Shown here: piece after piece, positions 1,313 through 60,203 of the stretch
Numbering within the stretch: position 1 is the first letter of the stretch
Layout of the letters: the number at the start of each line of letters is the position of its first letter
NCBI GenBank assembly: GCA_963745835.1
Contig: CAVUZH010000008.1
Span: forward strand, 128,001 to 192,000
DNA: 64,000 bases
Reading direction: 5' to 3'
Source: an uncultured delta proteobacterium
GTDB taxonomy: Bacteria; Desulfobacterota; Binatia; UBA9968
Made by a program: the position numbers and the translations under genes
Notes under the pieces: model-generated
The model's input: the letters and a program-made list of their open reading frames with translations, nothing else
The model's database searches: none
What the model was told of the DNA's origin: nothing

Positions 1313-2341
1313 TTACGCCAGCGGCGGTAACCCATCATTTTGCGGCTCATAATCGCGATCTTCTTTGCGCCGCTTGCCCACCGATTCATCTACACTCTCG
1401 TTGCCGAATGGGCTTGCACCGATGGCGCGATAATGACGCGGGTTTTTCTTGGCGTACACGCCACCGAGAAATTTCCCGTAAGAATCGGTAAAGGCGCCGC
1501 GGTAGTTATTTGGTCCCACCGTGATCAAGTCAAGTGCCAGCCCCGCAGCGGCGGCGTTGTCTTGCATCCATCGCAGTGCGAGGTCGGATAACCGGCGATC
1601 TTCGTAGCCGCCGCCGACATCGCAGTGTGCGCCAAGAAACCAGCGCTGTTGCAGAGCCTGCTCCGGCTTTACTTCGGGATTCCACAGGCAGGCATCGTAA
1701 TCGACTCGGTGCTCGTCGACGGCGATCGCGTGACAGGCGTTTTCAACGATCGCGCTGAGTCGGGTATCGTGAAACTCATAAAAATGCATATTCCAGCGCT
1801 TCAACAAATCTAATGGGATGCCGAGCGCGCCCACAGTATCCCAAACTCCAAGAAACTTTATCTTGATTTCGCGCGAGAACCGGTTTTTGAATTGCAGCGC
1901 GGTGGGCGAATCTGGGCCATCATCTCGGGTGCGGTAAATGCCATACGCCATAGCGATTCGCAAAGGCAACTGTTTGTTCTCCACCAAGCCGCAGTTTCGA
2001 ATCATGCCAACGAGACTTCTCGCGGTATAAGCGCCGCGGCTGAAACCAAGCACGTAAACTTCATCGCCTTCACGATACTTTTGGGCGAGAAATTTGTAGC
2101 CATCGAGAATATTCTTCTCGAGTCCAACTCCAAGCCCGCCGCCGATAAACCGATCATACCATTTTGTGCCGACACCCTCATCGTACCATTTGAGCTGCTG
2201 CGCGCCGTCGGCGCCGGCCTCCTTAACCGACTTGTAAAACCGGCACACGTTGGTTTCGACCTGCTCGTTTGCAGCCAAGTTCTCATCGGCTGGTTTGTTC
2301 CAGGTGCCGTCAAAACAAAGAACTATTCTTCTCATGGTCAT
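1313..2341 (-). CDS. DUF2235 (Tle1-like) alpha/beta hydrolase domain protein
   Basis: RRIVLCFDGTWN, ETNV, YDEGVGT, GFSRGAYTAR, GVWDTVGALG, HAIAVDEHR, WFLGAHCDVGGG motifs. Confidence 0.9.
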   Translation of the reverse strand: MTMRRIVLCFDGTWNKPADENLAANEQVETNVCRFYKSVKEAGADGAQQLKWYDEGVGTKWYDRFIGGGLGVGLEKNILDGYKFLAQKYREGDEVYVLGFSRGAYTARSLVGMIRNCGLVENKQLPLRIAMAYGIYRTRDDGPDSPTALQFKNRFSREIKIKFLGVWDTVGALGIPLDLLKRWNMHFYEFHDTRLSAIVENACHAIAVDEHRVDYDACLWNPEVKPEQALQQRWFLGAHCDVGGGYEDRRLSDLALRWMQDNAAAAGLALDLITVGPNNYRGAFTDSYGKFLGGVYAKKNPRHYRAIGASPFGNESVDESVGKRRKEDRDYEPQNDGLPPLA

Positions 2342-2435: not shown

Positions 2436-3503
2436 CTACAATAATCTCGGCATGTGCGCAAACGCGCTCATCTCGTGGGTCAGCGCGATGGGCTGAGATT
2501 TACATAAGTACTCGGGCTTTAGCTGATCGATGCGGGTTACACCGAGAAGCGCCATGGAGGTGATGATCTCGCTTTCGAGAATTTCCAATACCCGCACTAA
2601 GCCTTGCTGTCCCCCCGCTCCGAGGCCCCAGCCTTGAAGCTTGCCGATGGCCACAGCCTGGGCGCCAAGCGCGAGCGCTTTCAACACATCGCTGCCGCGC
2701 ACGATGCCGCCGTCCAAAACCACCGCGGCTCTGCCGGCCACGGCTTCGACGATTTCCGGCAGCATCTCGAGCGTTCCCCGGTTGTGATCGAGTTGGCGTC
2801 CGCCGTGATTGGATACATAGATTGCGCTGACGCCATGTTCGACAGCCAATGCCGCGTCTTCGGCGGTCGCAACTCCCTTGAGAATAAATGGCAGACCGGC
2901 GAACTTTTTGATCGCGACCATTGTCTCCCAAGTGATCGCGGAGCGGTGCTCGTATCCCGATAAGCGCCGACTCGGCGGCAGCCAGCGATCCATCATCTGG
3001 CGCTCGCGCCTGCCGTAGTATGCGGTATCGACAGTCAAACAGAGAGCCTGATAACCCGCAGTCTTGACCCGAGCCAGAAGAGTCTCCACCCATCTCATAT
3101 CGCCTTGGACGTAAAGCTGGAAAATTTTCGGGTGCGGCGTTGCCGCAGCGGTCTCCTCGAGGCTCGGCTGGGTAACCGAGCTGACGAAGTTAAGCGTGCC
3201 GAACTCGTGCGCAGCTTTGGCGACAGCCACGGCGCCTTCAGGCGTCATAATCTGCAGCGAACCGATCGGCGCCAGCATGACCGGAATTCTGAGCCTGTTC
3301 CCGAGAAACATTGTCGACGCATCGATCTTCGGCACTTCGACGAGCACGCGGGGGCGCAATGCGAGACTATCTAGCGCGAGCCGGTTACGGCACATGGTCG
3401 TCTCCGACTCGGCGCCGCCAGTCAAATAATGCCAGACATGCTGGCTTAGATTGCGTCTCGCCTGGGTGATGATTTCCTGAGTCGTGACGAAGCTCGATGG
3501 CAT
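2436..3503 (-). CDS. FMN-dependent alpha-hydroxy acid oxidase/dehydrogenase (LldD-like)
   Basis: LRPRVL, LTVDT, ILKGV, VSNHGGRQLD, DGGIVRGSDVLKALALGA motifs. Confidence 0.92.
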   Translation of the reverse strand: MPSSFVTTQEIITQARRNLSQHVWHYLTGGAESETTMCRNRLALDSLALRPRVLVEVPKIDASTMFLGNRLRIPVMLAPIGSLQIMTPEGAVAVAKAAHEFGTLNFVSSVTQPSLEETAAATPHPKIFQLYVQGDMRWVETLLARVKTAGYQALCLTVDTAYYGRRERQMMDRWLPPSRRLSGYEHRSAITWETMVAIKKFAGLPFILKGVATAEDAALAVEHGVSAIYVSNHGGRQLDHNRGTLEMLPEIVEAVAGRAAVVLDGGIVRGSDVLKALALGAQAVAIGKLQGWGLGAGGQQGLVRVLEILESEIITSMALLGVTRIDQLKPEYLCKSQPIALTHEMSAFAHMPRLL

Positions 3504-3510
3504 AAGATTA

Positions 3511-3694
3511 CCTCGTGTTTACGTGTTCGTGTCGGGGAAGTACCGTGTTCGTGATTCGGAAGAAGCCGTGCTCGTGTACGTGACTCGCAAACCGCTGTTA
3601 TTCGCCCCCATGCCCAAATCTCTTTTTCCGCTCAGACCACGAACACGGCACTTTTCACACCACGAACACGATTTTTTTCCGAGTCACGATTACG
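3511..3694. repeat. inverted degenerate CGTG/CACG micro-repeat arrays downstream of the four-helix-bundle gene
   Basis: Left arm 3511-3590: cgtgttcgtgtcgggg, cgtgttcgtgattcggaa, cgtgctcgtgtacgtgactcgcaaa. Right arm 3623-3694: cacgaacacg twice and ttttccgagtcacgattacg, reverse complements of the left-arm units. Confidence 0.8.
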
Positions 3695-3721
3695 TCTGAA
3701 CTCGAAAACACTATATGGGTC

Positions 3722-4096
3722 TCACCGAGAATGTGATTTCGATTTCTCATTCAGCGATTGCGACAGGCGCAAAAGCATTCGGATAACGCGGTCGTAACCG
3801 GAGCGCAGTTCCAGGTAAGTTTCATTTGAAATGTACTTCAAATCCCGCGCGAGAAGCAGTTGATAACATACTTCCCCTGCCGACCCTCTAGCGATTCCAA
3901 CAAACTGCCGATATTCACGGCTACCTAACCTCATAGCTCCTTCCATCAGGTTCATGCCCACTGAAGTTGCCGCTCGTCTGGTCTGTTCAATGAGGCTGAA
4001 CAATTCTCTTTTCGGAAAAGCTTTCGTTATCAAATAAATTTTGAGCGCCAGCTCATGAGCGAGCTTGAAGACATCAAGATCTTCCACCCGATTCAT
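3722..4096 (-). CDS. four helix bundle protein (23S rRNA intervening-sequence protein family)
   Basis: EDLDVFKLAHEL...FPKRELFSLIEQTRRAATSVGMNLMEG...QFVGIARGSAGEVCYQLLLARDLKYI; strong GGAGG RBS. Confidence 0.92.
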   Translation of the reverse strand: MNRVEDLDVFKLAHELALKIYLITKAFPKRELFSLIEQTRRAATSVGMNLMEGAMRLGSREYRQFVGIARGSAGEVCYQLLLARDLKYISNETYLELRSGYDRVIRMLLRLSQSLNEKSKSHSR

Positions 4097-4159
4097 CGTT
4101 GCCTCCTGCGTTAAATCAACTCGCGATTAGATTCTTTCTCTCGCGGCCCCTCGTTCTTC

Positions 4160-4263
4160 TTTTTCCCTGACGATCACGTTGCACGAACACGTAACTTTCC
4201 CAAGACGATCACGCTTTTCGATTCACGATCACGAGCACGATATTTCTCCGATCACGATCACGT
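4160..4263. repeat. degenerate (CACGAN)n repeat modules upstream of the four-helix-bundle gene
   Basis: Four modules, each a T-run followed by gacgatcacg/cacgaacacg/cacgatcacgagcacg/gatcacgatcacg, filling most of the oppC-to-four-helix gap. Confidence 0.8.
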
Positions 4264-4265
4264 CC

Positions 4266-5135
4266 TTACCCACGCGTCTTTGTCAACCTCGGATCCAGCG
4301 CGTCCCGTAGCGCGTCACCGAGCAGATTGAAGCTCATCAGGGCGAAGAAAATGAAGATGCCCGGTAGGAACACTTGCAGCGGGGCGATGAAGATGTTGGT
4401 TGAGGCATTGGTGAGGAGATTTCCCCAGCTTGGCGTCGGCGGCTGAATACCGAGGCCAAGAAAACTCAAGGTGGTTTCGGCTCGGATAGCAGCGCCGGCG
4501 TCGAGGGTGGCGGCGACAATTAGCGGTGCCAGCGAGTTTGGCAGCAGATGACGCAGCATAACGCGCCAGCGCGATGCGCCCAGGCAGTGCGCCGCCACCA
4601 CGAACTCTTGCTCGCGAAAAGAAAGCACCGCGCTGCGCGCCAGCCGGGCGGCATTGGTCCATTCCAGTGCGACCAGAATGATGATGATGTTCAACAGCCC
4701 CGGCCCGGCTACTTTGGACAGCACCAGTAACAGGACGATACGCGGAACCGTGTAAATAGTATCCACCATGCGCATCAGGATGTTGTCCAGAGTTCCACCG
4801 ACATAACCTGCGAGAATGCCGATCAGTCCGCCCAGAACTACCGTGCTCAACCCGACGATCAGGCCTACCGCCAGCGAGACTCTGCCGCCGTGCATGATCC
4901 TGACCCAGGTATCGCGCCCCAGTTCATCGGTGCCGAACCAGTGCGTCGCGGACGGTCCATGCATGCGCTCTGCGAGCGAAACTTGATCAAGTTCGTACGG
5001 GACAAAGTGAGGACCGGCAATCACCAGAAGCAAAAGAAAAACAAAGAAAAAAAATCCCACATAGGCGACGCGGTGCTGTTTAAAGCGTCGCCAGACGATG
5101 CGCCAGTTTCCTATTGGAAGCGGGGTCGACTCCAT
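4266..5135 (-). CDS. peptide/nickel ABC transporter permease (OppC/DppC-like)
   Basis: HWFGTDELGRD, EFVVAAHCLGAS...RHLLPN, LSFLGLG, GDALRDALDP; start placed at MESTPL to avoid overlap. Confidence 0.92.
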   Translation of the reverse strand: MESTPLPIGNWRIVWRRFKQHRVAYVGFFFFVFLLLLVIAGPHFVPYELDQVSLAERMHGPSATHWFGTDELGRDTWVRIMHGGRVSLAVGLIVGLSTVVLGGLIGILAGYVGGTLDNILMRMVDTIYTVPRIVLLLVLSKVAGPGLLNIIIILVALEWTNAARLARSAVLSFREQEFVVAAHCLGASRWRVMLRHLLPNSLAPLIVAATLDAGAAIRAETTLSFLGLGIQPPTPSWGNLLTNASTNIFIAPLQVFLPGIFIFFALMSFNLLGDALRDALDPRLTKTRG

Positions 5136-5139
5136 CGGG

Positions 5140-6105
5140 TCAATTTTGGTAGCGGATGCGTGGATCAAGCCAGCCATAAAGAATGTCGGCCAGCAGATTA
5201 AAGAACACCACCGCGACGGCGAGAATCATGACCACCGTCATGGCAATGACATAATCATTGCCCATCACCGAAGTGTAGAGGAGCCGGCCCATTCCGGGAT
5301 AAGCAAAAACAGTTTCGACCACAGTCGAACCGCCGATTACCCGCGGCATCGTCACCGCGATAATGGTGACCACGGGAATGAGCGCGTTCTTCAGAGCATG
5401 ACGGCCGATCACGGTCTGTTCGCTCAATCCCTTCGCCCGAGCCGTGGTCAAATAGTCCTGCCGCAACACCTCCAGCAAACTTGAACGCATAAATCGCTGC
5501 ACCTGAATGATTTCCGAAATCGCCAGCACCGACACCGGCAATATGAGATGTTTCATCCAATCGACCGTCGCTTCCCAGGTGCCCGGCGTCAGGTCGGGAT
5601 TGACGATGCCGGAAGTGGGCAGCCATCCGAGTTTCACGGAAAAAAGGATGATCATCATCAACCCGAGCCAGAACGCCGGAACCGAATAGGCGACAAAGGT
5701 CAGCGCCGTCAGCAGGTAATCGCCGATGGAATATTGCCGAACCGCGGAAAAAATTCCCAAGGCGATTGCGATCAGTTTGCCGATGACCACCGCCGTGATC
5801 GTCAGCACCAGAGTATTTTTCAACGCCGGAATAATGATATCGATCACCGGCTGTCCATACTCGCGCGAGTAACCGGGGTTCAGTTGAAGCAACTGCCAGA
5901 GCCACTTCCAATATTGAATGTAGAAAGGATCGTCGAAACCGTAGAGCTTGCGCAACCGTTCATAATCTTCCGGACGAAGGTTGGGGATTCCCTCGAGCAT
6001 CCGGTAGAGCGGATCCCCTGGCATGGAATAGAGCAGGAAAAAAATCAGAGCGGAGACGAAGAAGAGCAGCGGCACGAGCTGGATCAGACGACGGAAAATA
6101 TACAA
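5140..6105 (-). CDS. peptide/nickel ABC transporter permease (OppB/DppB-like)
   Basis: PGDP, QDYLTTARAKGL...HALKNA, ETVFAYPGMG, LDPRIRY. Confidence 0.93.
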   Translation of the reverse strand: MYIFRRLIQLVPLLFFVSALIFFLLYSMPGDPLYRMLEGIPNLRPEDYERLRKLYGFDDPFYIQYWKWLWQLLQLNPGYSREYGQPVIDIIIPALKNTLVLTITAVVIGKLIAIALGIFSAVRQYSIGDYLLTALTFVAYSVPAFWLGLMMIILFSVKLGWLPTSGIVNPDLTPGTWEATVDWMKHLILPVSVLAISEIIQVQRFMRSSLLEVLRQDYLTTARAKGLSEQTVIGRHALKNALIPVVTIIAVTMPRVIGGSTVVETVFAYPGMGRLLYTSVMGNDYVIAMTVVMILAVAVVFFNLLADILYGWLDPRIRYQN

Positions 6106-58037: not shown

Positions 58038-58869
58038 ATGTTGAAACCGATCGGGCTAGTGGCGGGCCATTATGAATGCCGCTCACTGCAACAAACCTTG
58101 CCTATTCTGCAAGACCTTCTGGCTCTTGAAGTGGTCGCGCGAAATGATGGTGAGATCATTCTCAAGCATCCCAATACCGACTGGAAGCTGATCGCACACG
58201 AGTCAGATGCCGATGGTCCGGATAAGCCCTTTCAACATCACTACGGCGTGCGTGTCGCGACCCACCGTGAGATCGATGAGGCGCACGAATACCTGCAAAG
58301 CAAGAAGAGAGAATACAAGATCAAAATCATCCAACCTAAAGAAAACCATAACGCGTACTCGGTCCATTTTTTTGAACCCGGAGGAAATTTCTGGGAGATC
58401 GAATCTTACGAAAAAGCCGATGAAGCCGGTATGGGTACCACGCGCCCTCACTGGCGAACTCCAATCAGCCAAGAGAAGTTTCCAGGCACGGGTACATTCC
58501 TCAGGCGCTGACGCACGGCACGGTCCAGTTTCACGACATAGAAGCCACCCGCCGTTTTTATGAGAACGTTCTCGGGTTGGAGGTTGTCCAACTGTGGCCT
58601 CCTCCATCTATGTGAAACATCCGCAAAGTCCCTGGTACATTGTCAATCTGCCTTTTCGCGCCGAACCGATTCTGCCCACTCGAGCGCAACGTTTTGTTCT
58701 TGCGCTTGAATCAGCGTCCGAAGTCCAAGAGGCGCACCACTGGCTTTCAAGTTCCGCCCAGACGCTGGGACTTAGCACATTAGACCCGATTCAAAGTTCG
58801 AATGATGTTGCTTGGTTCATTTTCTCGGACCTGAATCGCAATTGGTGGGAAGTTACCAGCGCACGCTGA
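58038..58869 (+). CDS. two-domain VOC family protein, frameshifted near 58490-58590
   Basis: HHYGVRV, FFEPGGNFWEIE; then PQALTHGT, FYENVLGLEV; then FSDLNRNWWEV; AGGAG RBS. Confidence 0.75.
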
Positions 58870-59010
58870 CGGGCCAAGTTCGTCATCGGCGTCAGAGGAT
58901 TCCGAGTGGATGGCGTGGAACAAGTCTATCTCTGGTGTTTAACCAATTCGACTTGATCCCTGGCTGAGCACATTCTGCTGCCCGGTTGGAGCAAACACGA
59001 GGAAGAAAGA

Positions 59011-59342
59011 ATGTCTGAATTCAAGAGGCGATCGCGAACTCGGAACTCGATGAAGGTTCGATCCTGGCCGTCAGAATCAACGGCGAGCGCATTGCGCTTT
59101 ACAAAATTGCCGGCGAAGTTTATGGCACCAGCGAGATGTGCTCGCATAGCGACTGCTCACTCGAAGATTTCGGCAAGATAGTCGAACACGATCAGGTGGA
59201 ATGTATCTGTCACGGCGCAAGGTTCCGCATCAAAACCGGGGAAGTGACAAGGTTACCGGCTGAGGTTCCACTCAAAACCTATTCAGTAAGGATCGATAAT
59301 GACGAGGTATGGGTCCGAGTGCCGGATCAGGCCAAGACATGA
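59011..59342 (+). CDS. Rieske 2Fe-2S ferredoxin; frameshift just after the start
   Basis: ELDEGSILAVRINGERIALYKIAGEVYGTSEMCSH...ECICHGARF..KTG...P...PLKTY (CxH...CxxH). Confidence 0.85.
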
Positions 59343-60203
59343 TGAGGACGGCAAGCGTTTTTCCCTTTTGCAGCACAACTTGCTGATTGGAACAGCAAGT
59401 ACGTTTGATCGTTAATTCGTTACTCTTGCGATCGTTGTCTTCTAACTGCCTTCCCCTCCCGCCATTCGGGCCCAAAGCCGCGTTAACATCGACAGGAACT
59501 CCTCAAAGCTATTATGGGCCCCCGACTGAAGTCGTGAGTTCCATCGTTCGGTCTCCTAAGCACGAGAAGGCTTAAAGCAGCTACGGCTGGTGTCGAACAA
59601 CTACAAATTAGATTCGCGTGAACCGAGAATTTCCTGAAGTGCCAAAGAAGACTTGTATCCTACAAGTCACCTTCTGCAAAAATTTTGTTTGAAATGAACT
59701 ACGCCAGAGCTGGAGGAGAAGCCCTTCGACCTCCACCCGTAAATCGCGCGCCGAGCCTCGTCGCAAAATTCTAGATGAAAAGATCTCCATAGGTAGGAAT
59801 GCGCAGTGCACTACCTAAATCGCTCTACGATGGCTTTCTGGCACCTTGCTTGCGTCCCACGCCTAACCGACATTGCACACTGAGTGCTCTGAGATGGAAA
59901 TCCAAACCGCATGATCCATACAGCGGCTCCAATATCGGCATCAGAAGACGCCAACCAAAATTGATTCTGATACGCTCTAGCTCCACAGAGTTCAGTTTCG
60001 CAACGTGTCATTGACCACCGTATTCTGAATGATGATTCGAATACGGCAATTCATTATCGCCGAACAACTTAAGTAAGAAACAACTCTGCTCACCAGCGCA
60101 GGACTGCGGCACTCTCACGTCTACTTCATGCCCGTGGAATTTCGTTGGCTTCCATCACAGTCGTAATTTCTGCCTGCGGAGCAGCAACACCTCAGGAGGA
60201 GCT

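What the first reader, a model, noticed from the sequence alone, without database searches (positions are those of the whole stretch)
3511..4263. Four-helix-bundle (IVS-type) gene caged by complementary micro-repeat arrays: candidate mRNA intervening element or mobile cassette
Seen: the gene sits inside an otherwise coherent minus-strand run (oppA-oppB-oppC-[cassette]-hydroxy acid oxidase). On the mRNA the order is CGTG-type modules x4 (4263-4160), RBS and ORF, CGTG-type modules x3 (3694-3623), a loop, then complementary CACG-type modules x3 (3590-3511). The last arm can pair with the adjacent arm (local hairpin) or with the upstream arm, looping out the whole ORF. Established: this family was first found inside 23S rRNA intervening sequences, where the ORF lies in an excised stem-loop, and it is structurally related to Avd, the nucleic-acid-binding accessory protein of DGRs; its function is unknown. 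Inference: protein plus repeats form a unit, either an RNA-level excisable/processed insert in mRNA or a protein that recognises its own flanking repeats and spreads between intergenic sites.
Basis: partly seen in the sequence, partly recalled or inferred. Interest (0 to 1): 0.8.

Follow-up and report, generated by a model that had tools for sequence, protein, structure and literature searches.

The report
Repeat-armed four-helix-bundle gene cassette
A small gene of the "23S rRNA intervening-sequence protein" family sits between two operon genes inside a long hairpin whose arms are runs of a 6-7-base word, and the same packaged unit with the same word follows this protein subfamily through many bacterial phyla, which points to an apparently undescribed selfish cassette and gives a 30-year-old orphan protein family a testable nucleic-acid partner.

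Summary
A 124-aa PF05635 gene (3722-4096, minus strand) lies between oppC and an FMN-dependent dehydrogenase gene. Upstream are CGTG-word arrays; downstream are a second CGTG array and a complementary CACG array (10 of the window's 12 CGTGNNCGTG matches; 2.2 expected).

It is one copy of a widespread unit. In relatives, 45 of 60 PF05635 genes have complementary flanks. Each protein subfamily keeps its own word. This subfamily keeps NGTG upstream and CACN downstream in 79 loci from about a dozen phyla, in at least 15 operon contexts, almost always in the sense direction.

In sister species the same spacer holds a different cassette of the same kind. The swapped segment is 3507-4284. Another spacer shows decay from an intact gene to an ORF-less hairpin. 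ORF-less arrays far outnumber genes.

Best reading (0.6): a selfish, IVS-like cassette whose ring protein recognises its own repeat word. How it moves is unknown.

RNA excision is not shown: I found no G-U strand bias, no covariation and no junction reads.

This scan has noted the same design on other DNA (388 notes, at least 357 genomes). Two full-text searches found no published description.

The parts
3507..4284 (-). Whole cassette as delimited by comparison with sister species. It is the segment with no homology to the orthologous oppC/FMN-dh spacer of G004. It includes the last 6 codons and stop of oppC and the ribosome-binding region of the FMN-dh gene.
   Evidence: blastn of G000 against G004 aligns 95.8% over 718 nt up to window 4285 and 91.9% over 1866 nt from window 3506 on, with nothing between. 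G005 and G006 give the same left edge and right edges at 3504 and 3491.
4160..4263 (-). Upstream arm: four CGTG-type modules (CGTGATCGTG, CGTGCTCGTGATCGTG, CGTGATCG, CGTGTTCGTG...CGTGATCG). The first CGTG lies inside the last oppC codons.
   Evidence: (family D1, 4 copies at 4161-4262).
4097..4159 (-). Leader with Shine-Dalgarno AGGAGG (4107-4102), 5 nt before the ATG. No promoter-like site upstream of the ORF.
   Evidence: sequence; 1 promoter-like site in 3300-4500 against 0.7 expected, and it lies at 3737-3710 inside the 3' end of the ORF.
3722..4096 (-). Four-helix-bundle gene, 124 aa, PF05635 (23S_rRNA_IVP).
   Evidence: E 7.3e-34. (2gsc_A, E 6.5e-16). (model, pLDDT 93.9, four helices). 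(2GSC TM 0.88/0.94; Avd 4DWL TM 0.77/0.88).
3623..3694 (-). Middle arm: CGTG-type modules of the same polarity as the upstream arm. It can pair locally with the last arm.
   Evidence: D2, D4, I2, I5, I7. (-68.2 kcal/mol with the last arm).
3511..3590 (-). Last arm: complementary CACG-type modules. It ends 8 nt before the ATG of the FMN-dh gene and overlaps its GAGG ribosome-binding site.
   Evidence: D3, I1, I3, I6. (-76.9 kcal/mol with the upstream arm).
4266..5177 (-). Context: oppC-type permease gene, upstream neighbour, same strand.
   Evidence: BPD_transp_1 and OppC_N.
2436..3503 (-). Context: FMN-dependent alpha-hydroxy-acid dehydrogenase/oxidase gene, downstream neighbour, same strand.
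   Evidence: FMN_dh, E 2e-107.

Best explanation
Window 3507-4284 is one copy of a selfish, 23S-rRNA-IVS-like gene cassette. The cassette is a promoter-less four-helix-bundle (PF05635) gene with its own ribosome-binding site. It is enclosed by arms made of about five copies of a 6-7-nt word, here CGTGNN(N) upstream and its complement downstream.

Shown:
- The unit is inherited and relocated as a whole.
- It lies in the sense direction in intercistronic spacers of many unrelated operons.
- It can be replaced by another cassette of the same kind at the same spacer.
- It decays by internal deletion to ORF-less hairpins, which outnumber the genes.
- The word is specific to the protein subfamily and is kept across phyla while everything else in the flanks turns over.

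Inferred:
- The protein is a homopentameric ring in the solved relatives and shares its fold with the RNA-binding DGR protein Avd. I propose that it binds the repeat word of its own cassette, about one word per subunit, on single-stranded RNA or DNA.
- The cassette is transcribed by read-through from the host operon.
- In the transcript the arms can pair either to loop out the ORF or as a local 3' hairpin.

How the unit moves is unknown. RNase III-type cleavage of the stem, as in rRNA IVS, is possible but not shown.
For: (1) Complementary flanks are general. For 60 PF05635 loci of 24 related genomes, the upstream 200 nt scored against the reverse complement of the downstream 200 nt gives a mean of 15.8. 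Mismatched pairs give 8.3, sd 1.9. 45 of 60 loci lie above the 95th percentile and 23 of 60 above the 99th (first 27 loci).

(2) The word follows the protein subfamily.
- The four other PF05635 loci of this genome carry other words: GGCAACAGGCA, GTTCAAA, ATTTCGAAATCCGAA.
- In 79 loci of the window's subfamily (50-84% protein identity; Binatia, Desulfobacterota, Methylomirabilota, Nitrospirota, Brocadia, WOR-3, Omnitrophota, Aminicenantes and others) the upstream 150 nt hold a median of 5 [CA]GTG against 0 of the complement. The downstream 150 nt hold a median of 4 CAC[GT] against 0.
- The polarity holds in 71 against 6 loci upstream and 61 against 11 downstream. Spacing is 6 nt (237) or 7 nt (143) in 380 of 459 intervals.
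- 51 of 77 subfamily members but only 6 of 58 non-members have at least 3 words on each side.
- Within the subfamily, CGTG arms go with Leu at residue 12 (47 of 49) and AGTG arms with Lys or Arg (13 of 15).

(3) Mobility.
- The same subfamily with the same word lies in at least 15 different gene-pair contexts among the 51 of 80 loci whose neighbours I scanned. Examples are ubiD-ubiA, NAD kinase-recN, epimerase-DegT, glcD-glcF, mlaE-mlaF, fliC-fliW, secA-argJ and cas1-cas4.
- In G004, G005 and G006, whose flanks are 88-97% identical in DNA, the same oppC/FMN-dh spacer holds a different PF05635 gene with different arms, GATGAATGATGAAAGCGGAAAGC and its complement.

(4) Decay series in the E1alpha-E1beta spacer:
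- intact gene in G012;
- pseudogene in G000;
- internally deleted genes with arms in G002 and G010;
- ORF-less hairpin of the same word in G015;
- ORF-less hairpin of another cassette's word in G017;
- no arms in G005, G006, G011 and G014.

(5) ORF-less copies.
- About 20 CGTG hairpin loci in this genome lie away from any PF05635 gene.
- There are 62 GTTCAA-array clusters against one GTTCAA-armed gene.
- GTTCAA triple arrays number 25-197 in 18 of 19 genomes of family f1. They number 2 in G013, the only f1 genome without a PF05635 hit. They number 0 in 7 of 7 f3 genomes, which also lack PF05635. The reversed-pattern control gives 0 everywhere.

(6) Orientation. Of 126 loci with both neighbours called, 95 are ++, 19 +-, 10 -+ and 2 --. 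No promoter-like site lies upstream of the ORF here.

(7) Protein. The fold matches the pentameric XCC0516 (2GSC) and BT_0352 (2RLD), then Avd alone and inside DGR ribonucleoprotein structures. The pentamer and toroid statement for 2GSC comes from passages of PMC4990558.

(8) RNA-library contigs of three studies cover the ORF and the 3' arms at 94-99% identity.
Against: - No binding was tested. The subfamily-word link is also what common descent of a unit predicts, and related loci are not independent.
- Constraint is inferred only from the word persisting while protein identity falls to 50%.
- 24 of 72 subfamily loci in the wide set, and the window's own locus under the 150-nt rule, miss the criterion of 3 words on each side. 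15 of 60 loci in relatives have no complementary flanks above the 95th percentile.
- GTTCAA arrays also border toxin-antitoxin-like genes, so arrays are not exclusive to this gene family.
- The number of arrays does not track the number of PF05635 genes among f1 genomes.
- G013 is one 92%-complete MAG.
- No target-site duplication and no clean empty site was found, so insertion as an event is inferred, not seen.
- RNA-level function lacks support: no G-U strand bias and no covariation.
- RNA-library contigs may contain DNA and show neither ends nor joints.
- A four-helix bundle has no known catalytic activity that could move DNA.
Confidence: 0.6

Rival explanations
1. This is purely an RNA device, like an rRNA intervening sequence. 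The arms matter only as a double-stranded stem that RNase III cuts. That cut would separate the oppC and oxidase cistrons and release the 4HB mRNA. The protein does not recognise the arms.
For: The architecture matches ORF-bearing 23S IVS: terminal inverted repeats and a sense ORF (passages of PMC4990558). The long-range pairing is strong (-76.9 kcal/mol) and is the MFE. Orientation is in the sense direction. There is no promoter of its own.
Against: A stem needs complementarity, not a fixed word. Yet the word and its polarity are kept across phyla. The stem of seven ubiD-ubiA cassettes shows 0 of 10 compensatory pairs. Arm mismatches are mostly transversions (173 against 136 transitions), with no sense-strand G-U excess (75 against 61). 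Some subfamilies have direct rather than inverted arrays (L026, L027, L102).
Confidence: 0.2
2. The arms are terminal inverted repeats used by a transposase or recombinase encoded elsewhere. The 4HB gene is a passenger or an accessory factor, as Avd is for the DGR reverse transcriptase.
For: Arrays of short sites in inverted orientation at both ends resemble multi-site transposon ends (recalled: Tn7, Mu). ORF-less copies are many. Arrays also border other small genes.
Against: No transposase, integrase or reverse transcriptase lies next to the cassette here or among the neighbours of the 51 loci scanned. The same enzyme would have to co-travel through a dozen phyla. Each protein subfamily has its own word, which points to the cassette's own protein as the specificity factor.
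Confidence: 0.12
3. The hairpin arrays are independent host repeats (REP- or MITE-like). The 4HB genes merely land in, or survive in, their loops. The association with this gene is incidental.
For: Orphan arrays vastly outnumber genes. rRNA IVS also occupy pre-existing hairpin loops (passages of PMC4990558).
Against: Host repeats should be genome-specific. Here the word follows the protein subfamily through unrelated phyla and differs between subfamilies inside one genome. The swap at the oppC spacer exchanges arms and gene together. Genomes without PF05635 lack the arrays.
Confidence: 0.06
4. It is a domesticated regulator of the opp/oxidase operon. The two alternative pairings act as a switch that masks the ribosome-binding site of the oxidase gene, and the protein sets the switch.
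For: The last arm overlaps the GAGG of the FMN-dh gene. The two competing pairings are of similar strength.
Against: The same unit sits in at least 15 unrelated operons. It is replaced by a different cassette in sister species, two of whose copies are broken. That is not expected of a needed regulator.
Confidence: 0.05

Closest known systems
ORF-bearing intervening sequences (IVS) of 23S rRNA (Coxiella burnetii helix 45 with S23p; Leptospira, Xanthomonas, Brucella)
   Same: Same protein family (PF05635). The ORF is in the sense direction of the host transcript. Terminal inverted repeats enclose the ORF. ORF-less versions exist. Distribution is sporadic and suggests horizontal spread. An old proposal holds that the ORF serves mobility (Ralph and McClelland 1993, as cited in passages of PMC4990558).
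   Different: It lies between protein genes of an operon, not in an rRNA helix. The arms are arrays of a short subfamily-specific word, not a unique 28-bp stem. Dozens of ORF-less copies lie in the same genome. Excision by RNase III is shown for the IVS and not shown here.
Avd, accessory variability determinant of diversity-generating retroelements (PDB 4DWL; DGR RNP 8UB7, 8UBE)
   Same: Four-helix-bundle fold (TM 0.77/0.88, rmsd 1.9 A). Pfam PF05635 is the family that resembles Avd (passage of PMC10053308). Avd works as a ring bound to RNA and the reverse transcriptase.
   Different: Sequence identity is 9%. There is no reverse transcriptase and no template or variable repeat next to the gene. 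The gene stands alone between housekeeping genes.
REPIN-RAYT systems (REP-associated tyrosine transposases flanked by their own REP hairpins) - recalled, no call
   Same: A single-copy gene is flanked in inverted orientation by the repeat family that is dispersed as hairpins through the same genome. Each gene subfamily has its own repeat family. The repeats are missing where the gene is missing.
   Different: RAYTs are IS200/IS605-type Y1 nucleases. The 4HB protein has no known catalytic site. The repeats here are tandem word arrays, not single palindromes.
Ring-shaped RNA-binding attenuation protein TRAP with its (G/U)AG repeat array - recalled, no call; analogy of mechanism only
   Same: A homo-oligomeric ring, and a target made of as many short words as subunits, separated by short variable spacers (median of 5 words, 6-7-nt period).
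   Different: The fold is unrelated. Binding here is untested.
Gut-1 RNA motif (Rfam RF01706) and cyanobacterial short tandem repeats (STRR), as linked to this gene family by earlier notes of this scan
   Same: Arrays of a 7-nt word and small hairpins beside PF05635 genes, according to notes e1-5206555, e1-3515250 and e1-2292430.
   Different: No Rfam family, Gut-1 included, matches window 3300-4500 up to E = 1. I did not test the link.

Membership tests
PF05635 / 23S rRNA intervening-sequence protein (four-helix-bundle, S23p) family | Match to the Pfam profile over the curated cut-off | tested here: met
   116.6 bits against a cut-off of 33.8, profile positions 1-104 of 106.
PF05635 / 23S rRNA intervening-sequence protein (four-helix-bundle, S23p) family | Four-helix-bundle fold like the solved members 2GSC and 2RLD | tested here: met
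   (pLDDT 93.9, four helices). (2GSC TM 0.88/0.94; 2RLD TM 0.77/0.85).
PF05635 / 23S rRNA intervening-sequence protein (four-helix-bundle, S23p) family | Homopentameric ring | not tested
   Both PDB entries hold 5 chains. The pentamer is stated for 2GSC in passages of PMC4990558. The window protein was not modelled as an oligomer.
rRNA intervening sequence (IVS) | Inserted in a helix of an rRNA gene | tested here: not met
   Neighbours are oppC and an FMN-dependent dehydrogenase gene. The other four copies in the genome also lie between protein-coding sequences (by eye).
rRNA intervening sequence (IVS) | Terminal inverted repeats form a stem that encloses the ORF, which is in the sense direction of the host transcript | tested here: met
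   (stem). (sense orientation here; 95 of 126 loci ++, 2 --).
rRNA intervening sequence (IVS) | Excised from the transcript by RNase III without re-ligation | not testable with these tools
   Only assembled contigs of RNA libraries were available. They show no joints and cannot show ends.
Diversity-generating retroelement (Avd as accessory gene) | Avd-like fold | tested here: met
   4DWL TM 0.77/0.88, 9% identity.
Diversity-generating retroelement (Avd as accessory gene) | Adjacent reverse transcriptase with template and variable repeats | tested here: not met
   No RT among the six genes around the locus, nor among the 102 neighbour proteins of 51 related loci.
REPIN-RAYT | Gene encodes a Y1 (IS200/IS605-type) transposase | tested here: not met
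   The only Pfam family is PF05635.
REPIN-RAYT | Gene flanked by inverted copies of a repeat that is dispersed genome-wide | tested here: met
Integron gene cassette | attC site 3' of the ORF and an IntI integrase with attI nearby | tested here: not met
   The arms lie on both sides of the ORF. The neighbours are oppC and FMN_dh, and no integrase is present. Only the six nearest genes were scanned.
MITE / IS-type transposon | Terminal inverted repeats with a target-site duplication | tested here: inconclusive
   Inverted arms are present. No clean empty site was found, so a duplication cannot be read. The sister alleles are filled with another cassette.

The most novel reading that the evidence does not exclude
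Stand-alone PF05635 ring proteins are sequence-specific binders of short tandem words, and they drive a large, undescribed class of nuclease-less mobile hairpin cassettes. The classical ORF-bearing rRNA intervening sequences would be only the special case that landed in rRNA. Many unexplained word arrays and hairpin repeats of bacterial intergenic DNA would be their ORF-less progeny, kept up in trans by the matching protein in the manner of REPIN-RAYT. Examples here are the CGTG hairpins and GTTCAA arrays; elsewhere, possibly Gut-1 and cyanobacterial STRR. Residue 12 (Leu against Lys/Arg) would be part of a readable protein-word code.
Probability: 0.35. Interest if true: 0.85.

Novelty: new variant of a known kind. 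Interest (0 to 1): 0.72.

Why it matters
The PF05635 family has had no function since it was found inside rRNA intervening sequences about 30 years ago. Its one studied relative, Avd, is known only as a partner of a reverse transcriptase.

The anatomy shown here turns 'function unknown' into concrete binding and processing experiments:
- a fixed word per protein subfamily;
- about five words per arm, for a pentameric ring;
- sense insertion into operon spacers;
- cassette swapping at one site;
- decay to ORF-less hairpins, and loss of the arrays where the gene is missing.

It would also explain a share of the short tandem-word arrays that litter intergenic DNA of many phyla. It matters for annotation too, because the cassette supplies the stop codon of the upstream gene and the ribosome-binding site of the downstream gene.

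Tried and rejected
- RNA-strand test. In 42 loci with arm score of at least 13, mismatches that would be G-U on the sense strand numbered 75 against 61 for the antisense strand (p 0.26), with 173 transversions. This gives no sign of selection on an RNA stem.
- Covariation. RNAalifold on seven ubiD-ubiA cassettes (two of them, L110 and L037, are the same sequence) predicts the long-range stem, but 0 of its 10 pairs vary on both sides. The covariation term is 0.04 kcal/mol. This is uninformative.
- Rfam. No family matches up to E = 1 in 3300-4500 except two chance snoRNA matches far below their thresholds.
- Promoter and terminator scan: nothing above chance.
- Reads. Only contigs were available. 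There were no joints and no usable ends, and the DNA contigs of X1 break at the repeats. Parts without cover mean nothing.
- Habitat labels of the runs were not used.
- A full duplex-energy matrix timed out and was replaced by local alignment scores.
- A family-wide alignment (A1) was too diverse for the search for related loci. The scan was therefore made with the window's subfamily only (A2), so the cross-phylum result covers one subfamily.
- Copy-number link. The number of PF05635 hits and the number of GTTCAA arrays per f1 genome do not track each other by eye. Only presence and absence agree.
- Target-site duplication: none can be read without an empty site.
- Integron, DGR, RAYT and toxin-antitoxin readings were rejected on the missing defining genes.
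- No oligomer or complex prediction was run.
Full report
OBSERVATION

- oppC ends at 4266.
- Four CGTG-type modules lie at 4161-4262.
- AGGAGG lies at 4107-4102.
- A 124-codon ORF lies at 4096-3722.
- A second CGTG-type array lies at 3694-3623.
- A complementary CACG-type array lies at 3590-3511.
- The ATG of the next gene is at 3503.

Pfam calls the ORF 23S_rRNA_IVP (PF05635, E 7.3e-34). It calls the neighbours oppA/B/C-type transporter genes and an FMN-dependent dehydrogenase.

CGTGNNCGTG occurs 12 times in the 64-kb window, 10 of them in 3522-4262. The expectation is 2.19, sd 1.62, and 0 of 100 shuffles reach 12.

The last arm can pair with the upstream arm (-76.9 kcal/mol) or with the middle arm (-68.2). 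With a shuffled last arm the values are -42 and -38. The MFE of the whole region takes the long-range pairing, although the total energy is only modestly better than shuffles (z -1.76).

THE GENOME

The window is contig C8:128001-192000 of a 7.28-Mb, 54% G+C assembly. The closest named relatives of the cassette protein are 'Candidatus Binatia' MAGs.

The genome has five PF05635 loci. The other four are flanked by other words, complementary between the two sides:
- GGCAACAGGCA with TGCCTGTTG (C23);
- GTTCAAA with TTTGAAC (C14);
- ATTTCGAAATCCGAA (C15);
- C3 holds a fragment.

CGTGNNCGTG hits form 29 clusters of two or more in the genome, and the two largest are at this locus. About 20 other loci are 50-150-nt hairpins of the pattern CGTG..CGTG..CACG..CACG with no ORF and no PF05635 gene nearby. 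GTTCAA arrays form 62 clusters against one GTTCAA-armed gene.

IS THE PACKAGING GENERAL?

I took 63 PF05635 loci from 24 related genomes, of which 60 had full flanks. I scored the 200 nt upstream against the reverse complement of the 200 nt downstream.
- Matched pairs average 15.8 and mismatched pairs 8.3, sd 1.9.
- 45 of 60 loci exceed the 95th percentile and 23 of 60 the 99th percentile of mismatched pairs (27-locus pilot).
- The arms mostly lie 40-95 nt before the gene and 5-45 nt after the stop.
- High mismatched scores come from loci that share a word.
- Three of the 60 loci (L013, L039, L032) are from the unpublished genomes G012 and G018. Leaving them out would not change the picture.

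THE WORD FOLLOWS THE PROTEIN

Proteins starting EDLEIWKEAR carry GTTCAA. Those starting GLEIFHAA carry TATGGC. Those starting KDLDVYKK carry GTCAGA. The window's type, DLDVFKLAHEL, carries CGTG.

A scan of one genome per species with the window's subfamily (A2) returned 80 loci from Binatia, Desulfobacterota, Methylomirabilota, Nitrospirota, Brocadia, WOR-3, Deferribacteres, Omnitrophota, Aminicenantes, Nitrospinota, Acidobacteriota and a Marinifilum MAG.

In 79 loci with 150-nt flanks (75 of these plus 4 from the relatives):
- The upstream flank holds a median of 5 [CA]GTG against 0 of the complement.
- The downstream flank holds 4 CAC[GT] against 0. The expectation is 1.2.
- The polarity holds in 71 against 6 and in 61 against 11 loci.
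- 380 of 459 word-to-word intervals are 6 or 7 nt.

51 of 77 subfamily members and 6 of 58 non-members have at least three words on each side. The window's own locus fails this rule only because its arms lie further out.

Distant members use AGTG instead of CGTG. Residue 12 is Leu in 47 of 49 CGTG-armed loci and Lys or Arg in 13 of 15 AGTG-armed loci.

All of this is confounded by descent. What argues for constraint is that the word and its polarity persist while protein identity falls to 50% and the rest of the flanks is unalignable.

MOBILITY AND TURNOVER

The same subfamily with the same word lies between ubiD and ubiA (G011), between secA and argJ (G015), and between oppC and the oxidase gene here.

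I scanned the neighbours of 51 of the 80 wider loci. They give at least 15 different gene pairs:
- ubiD-ubiA, 6 loci;
- epimerase-DegT, 6;
- NAD kinase-recN, 4;
- Wzy-T2SSF, 3;
- glcD-glcF, 2;
- cas1-cas4, 5;
- mlaE-mlaF, fliC-fliW, a kinase-regulator pair, ABC2-Wzt and others.

Of 126 loci with both neighbours called, 95 are co-oriented with both and 2 are opposed to both. The ORF calling was crude and the loci are not independent.

In the sister species G004, G005 and G006 the oppC/FMN-dh spacer is filled by a different PF05635 gene. It is intact in G005, has two in-frame stops in G004, and is fragmentary by eye in G006. Its arms are GATGAATGATGAAAGCGGAAAGC and the complement.

Homology to G004 stops at window 4285 and resumes at 3506, with flanks 92-96% identical. 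The exchanged unit is therefore 3507-4284. It brings the last six codons and stop of oppC and the ribosome-binding region of the oxidase gene.

The E1alpha-E1beta spacer shows the life history:
- an intact gene with GGCAAYAGGCA arms in G012 (unpublished genome; this one step rests on it);
- a pseudogene in G000;
- internally deleted genes in G002 and G010;
- an ORF-less hairpin of the same word in G015;
- an ORF-less hairpin of the AGTCCTGAG word in G017, the word of a cassette seen in G016;
- no arms in G005, G006, G011 and G014.

ARRAYS AND GENE CO-OCCUR

GTTCAA triple arrays number 25-197 in 18 of 19 f1 genomes. They number 2 in G013, the only f1 genome without a PF05635 hit (92% complete). 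They number 0-1 in the five f2 genomes, which have other subfamilies, and 0 in 7 of 7 f3 genomes, which have no PF05635. The reversed pattern gives 0 everywhere. The counts for G012 and G018 are from unpublished genomes.

CGTG double arrays are most frequent in G011 (31), G015 (22), G009 (16) and G000 (14). Counts of arrays and of genes do not track each other within f1.

THE PROTEIN

The model (pLDDT 93.9) is a four-helix bundle. The best structural matches are XCC0516 (2GSC, TM 0.88/0.94) and BT_0352 (2RLD), then Avd (4DWL, TM 0.77/0.88, 9% identity) and Avd within DGR ribonucleoprotein structures.

According to passages of PMC4990558, 2GSC is a homopentameric toroid. The Coxiella IVS has a 28-bp terminal stem cut by RNase III. 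Ralph and McClelland (1993) proposed that the IVS is a mobile element whose ORF serves mobility. A passage of PMC10053308 equates PF05635 with Avd-like proteins.

RNA OR DNA?

I found no sign that the arms are kept as an RNA stem:
- Sense-strand G-U mismatches do not exceed antisense ones (75 against 61, p 0.26), and transversions dominate.
- The predicted long-range stem of the ubiD-ubiA cassettes never varies.

RNA-library contigs from three studies cover 3540-3701, 3565-3801, 3678-3949 and 3956-4112 at 94-99% identity. One contig joins the 3' end of oppC to the arm of the other cassette type, which is a relative's allele. These are contigs, DNA carry-over is possible, and no joints were seen.

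No promoter-like site precedes the ORF. No Rfam family matches.

READING

I commit to a selfish, IVS-like cassette whose ring protein recognises the word of its own arms (0.6). In this reading it is transcribed by read-through, and ORF-less hairpins are its decayed or trans-maintained progeny.

Shown: unit inheritance, relocation, swapping, decay, word specificity and orientation. Inferred: binding, read-through, pairing in vivo, and any means of movement.

The rivals are a pure RNase III device (0.2), ends for an unlinked transposase (0.12), incidental host repeats (0.06) and a domesticated operon switch (0.05).

PRIOR KNOWLEDGE

Two full-text searches returned nothing that describes PF05635 genes with word-array arms outside rRNA.
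- One search found 473 papers holding any of 4 terms.
- One search found 22 papers.
- I saw listings, and passages of PMC4990558, PMC10053308 and PMC8700078.
Subscription journals are not covered.

This scan has noted the same design many times on other DNA: 388 notes in at least 357 genomes. That includes the points that each subfamily keeps its own word (e1-2714829) and that gene-less copies exist (e1-5262017). I reached those points from my own calls before reading the notes, and they agree.

Noticed in passing
G000:C13:25500-32000 (L043); genome-wide list: GTTCAA x3-5 arrays form 62 clusters in the genome. Many start right after a stop codon and end in CGNCAGA. On C13 they lie between small toxin-antitoxin-like genes (PIN, RHH, HigA-like by eye), so word arrays may bound other small cassettes too.
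   Followed up: partly
L161, L163, L164, L174, L179 (also L158, L168, L155, L137): AGTG-armed members of this 4HB subfamily sit inside CRISPR adaptation operons, between cas1 and cas4, in Nitrospirota, Brocadiaceae, Desantisbacteria and Thermodesulfobacteriota MAGs.
   Followed up: no
residue 12 of the protein (window 4063-4061): Leu in 47 of 49 CGTG-armed loci and Lys/Arg in 13 of 15 AGTG-armed loci. This is a candidate specificity residue, confounded by descent.
   Followed up: partly
G000:C14:587058-587125, C19:176761-176827, C13:312180-312244: ORF-less CGTG hairpins lie 30-40 nt from a second conserved repeat (AGGCTGCTGAAAAAGNC or its complement). This suggests a composite dispersed element.
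   Followed up: no
G013 (whole genome): This is the only genome of family f1 without a PF05635 hit. It has 2 GTTCAA arrays and 1 CGTG double array, against 25-197 and up to 31 in its relatives.
   Followed up: partly
window 4284-4377 and RNA-library run X15: A 207-nt contig of a soil metatranscriptome library joins the 3' end of oppC (6 differences in 94 nt) to the upstream arm of the other cassette type found in G004-G006.
   Followed up: no
L108:960-1397 and 1501-1875: Two PF05635 genes stand in tandem in one MAG contig.
   Followed up: no
G000:C23:58530-59538: The E1alpha gene upstream of the C23 cassette reads as two overlapping ORFs (58530-59219 and 58936-59538). This may be a frameshift or an assembly error. 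The 4HB gene there has an in-frame TAA.
   Followed up: no
L026, L027, L102 (family f2 and G010): Some PF05635 subfamilies have the same-sense word array on both sides (direct, not inverted), for example AGACCAGACAGAC.
   Followed up: no
window 1313-2341: A T6SS Tle1-like phospholipase-domain gene (PF09994, E 1.2e-80) lies just downstream of the oxidase gene on the same strand.
   Followed up: no
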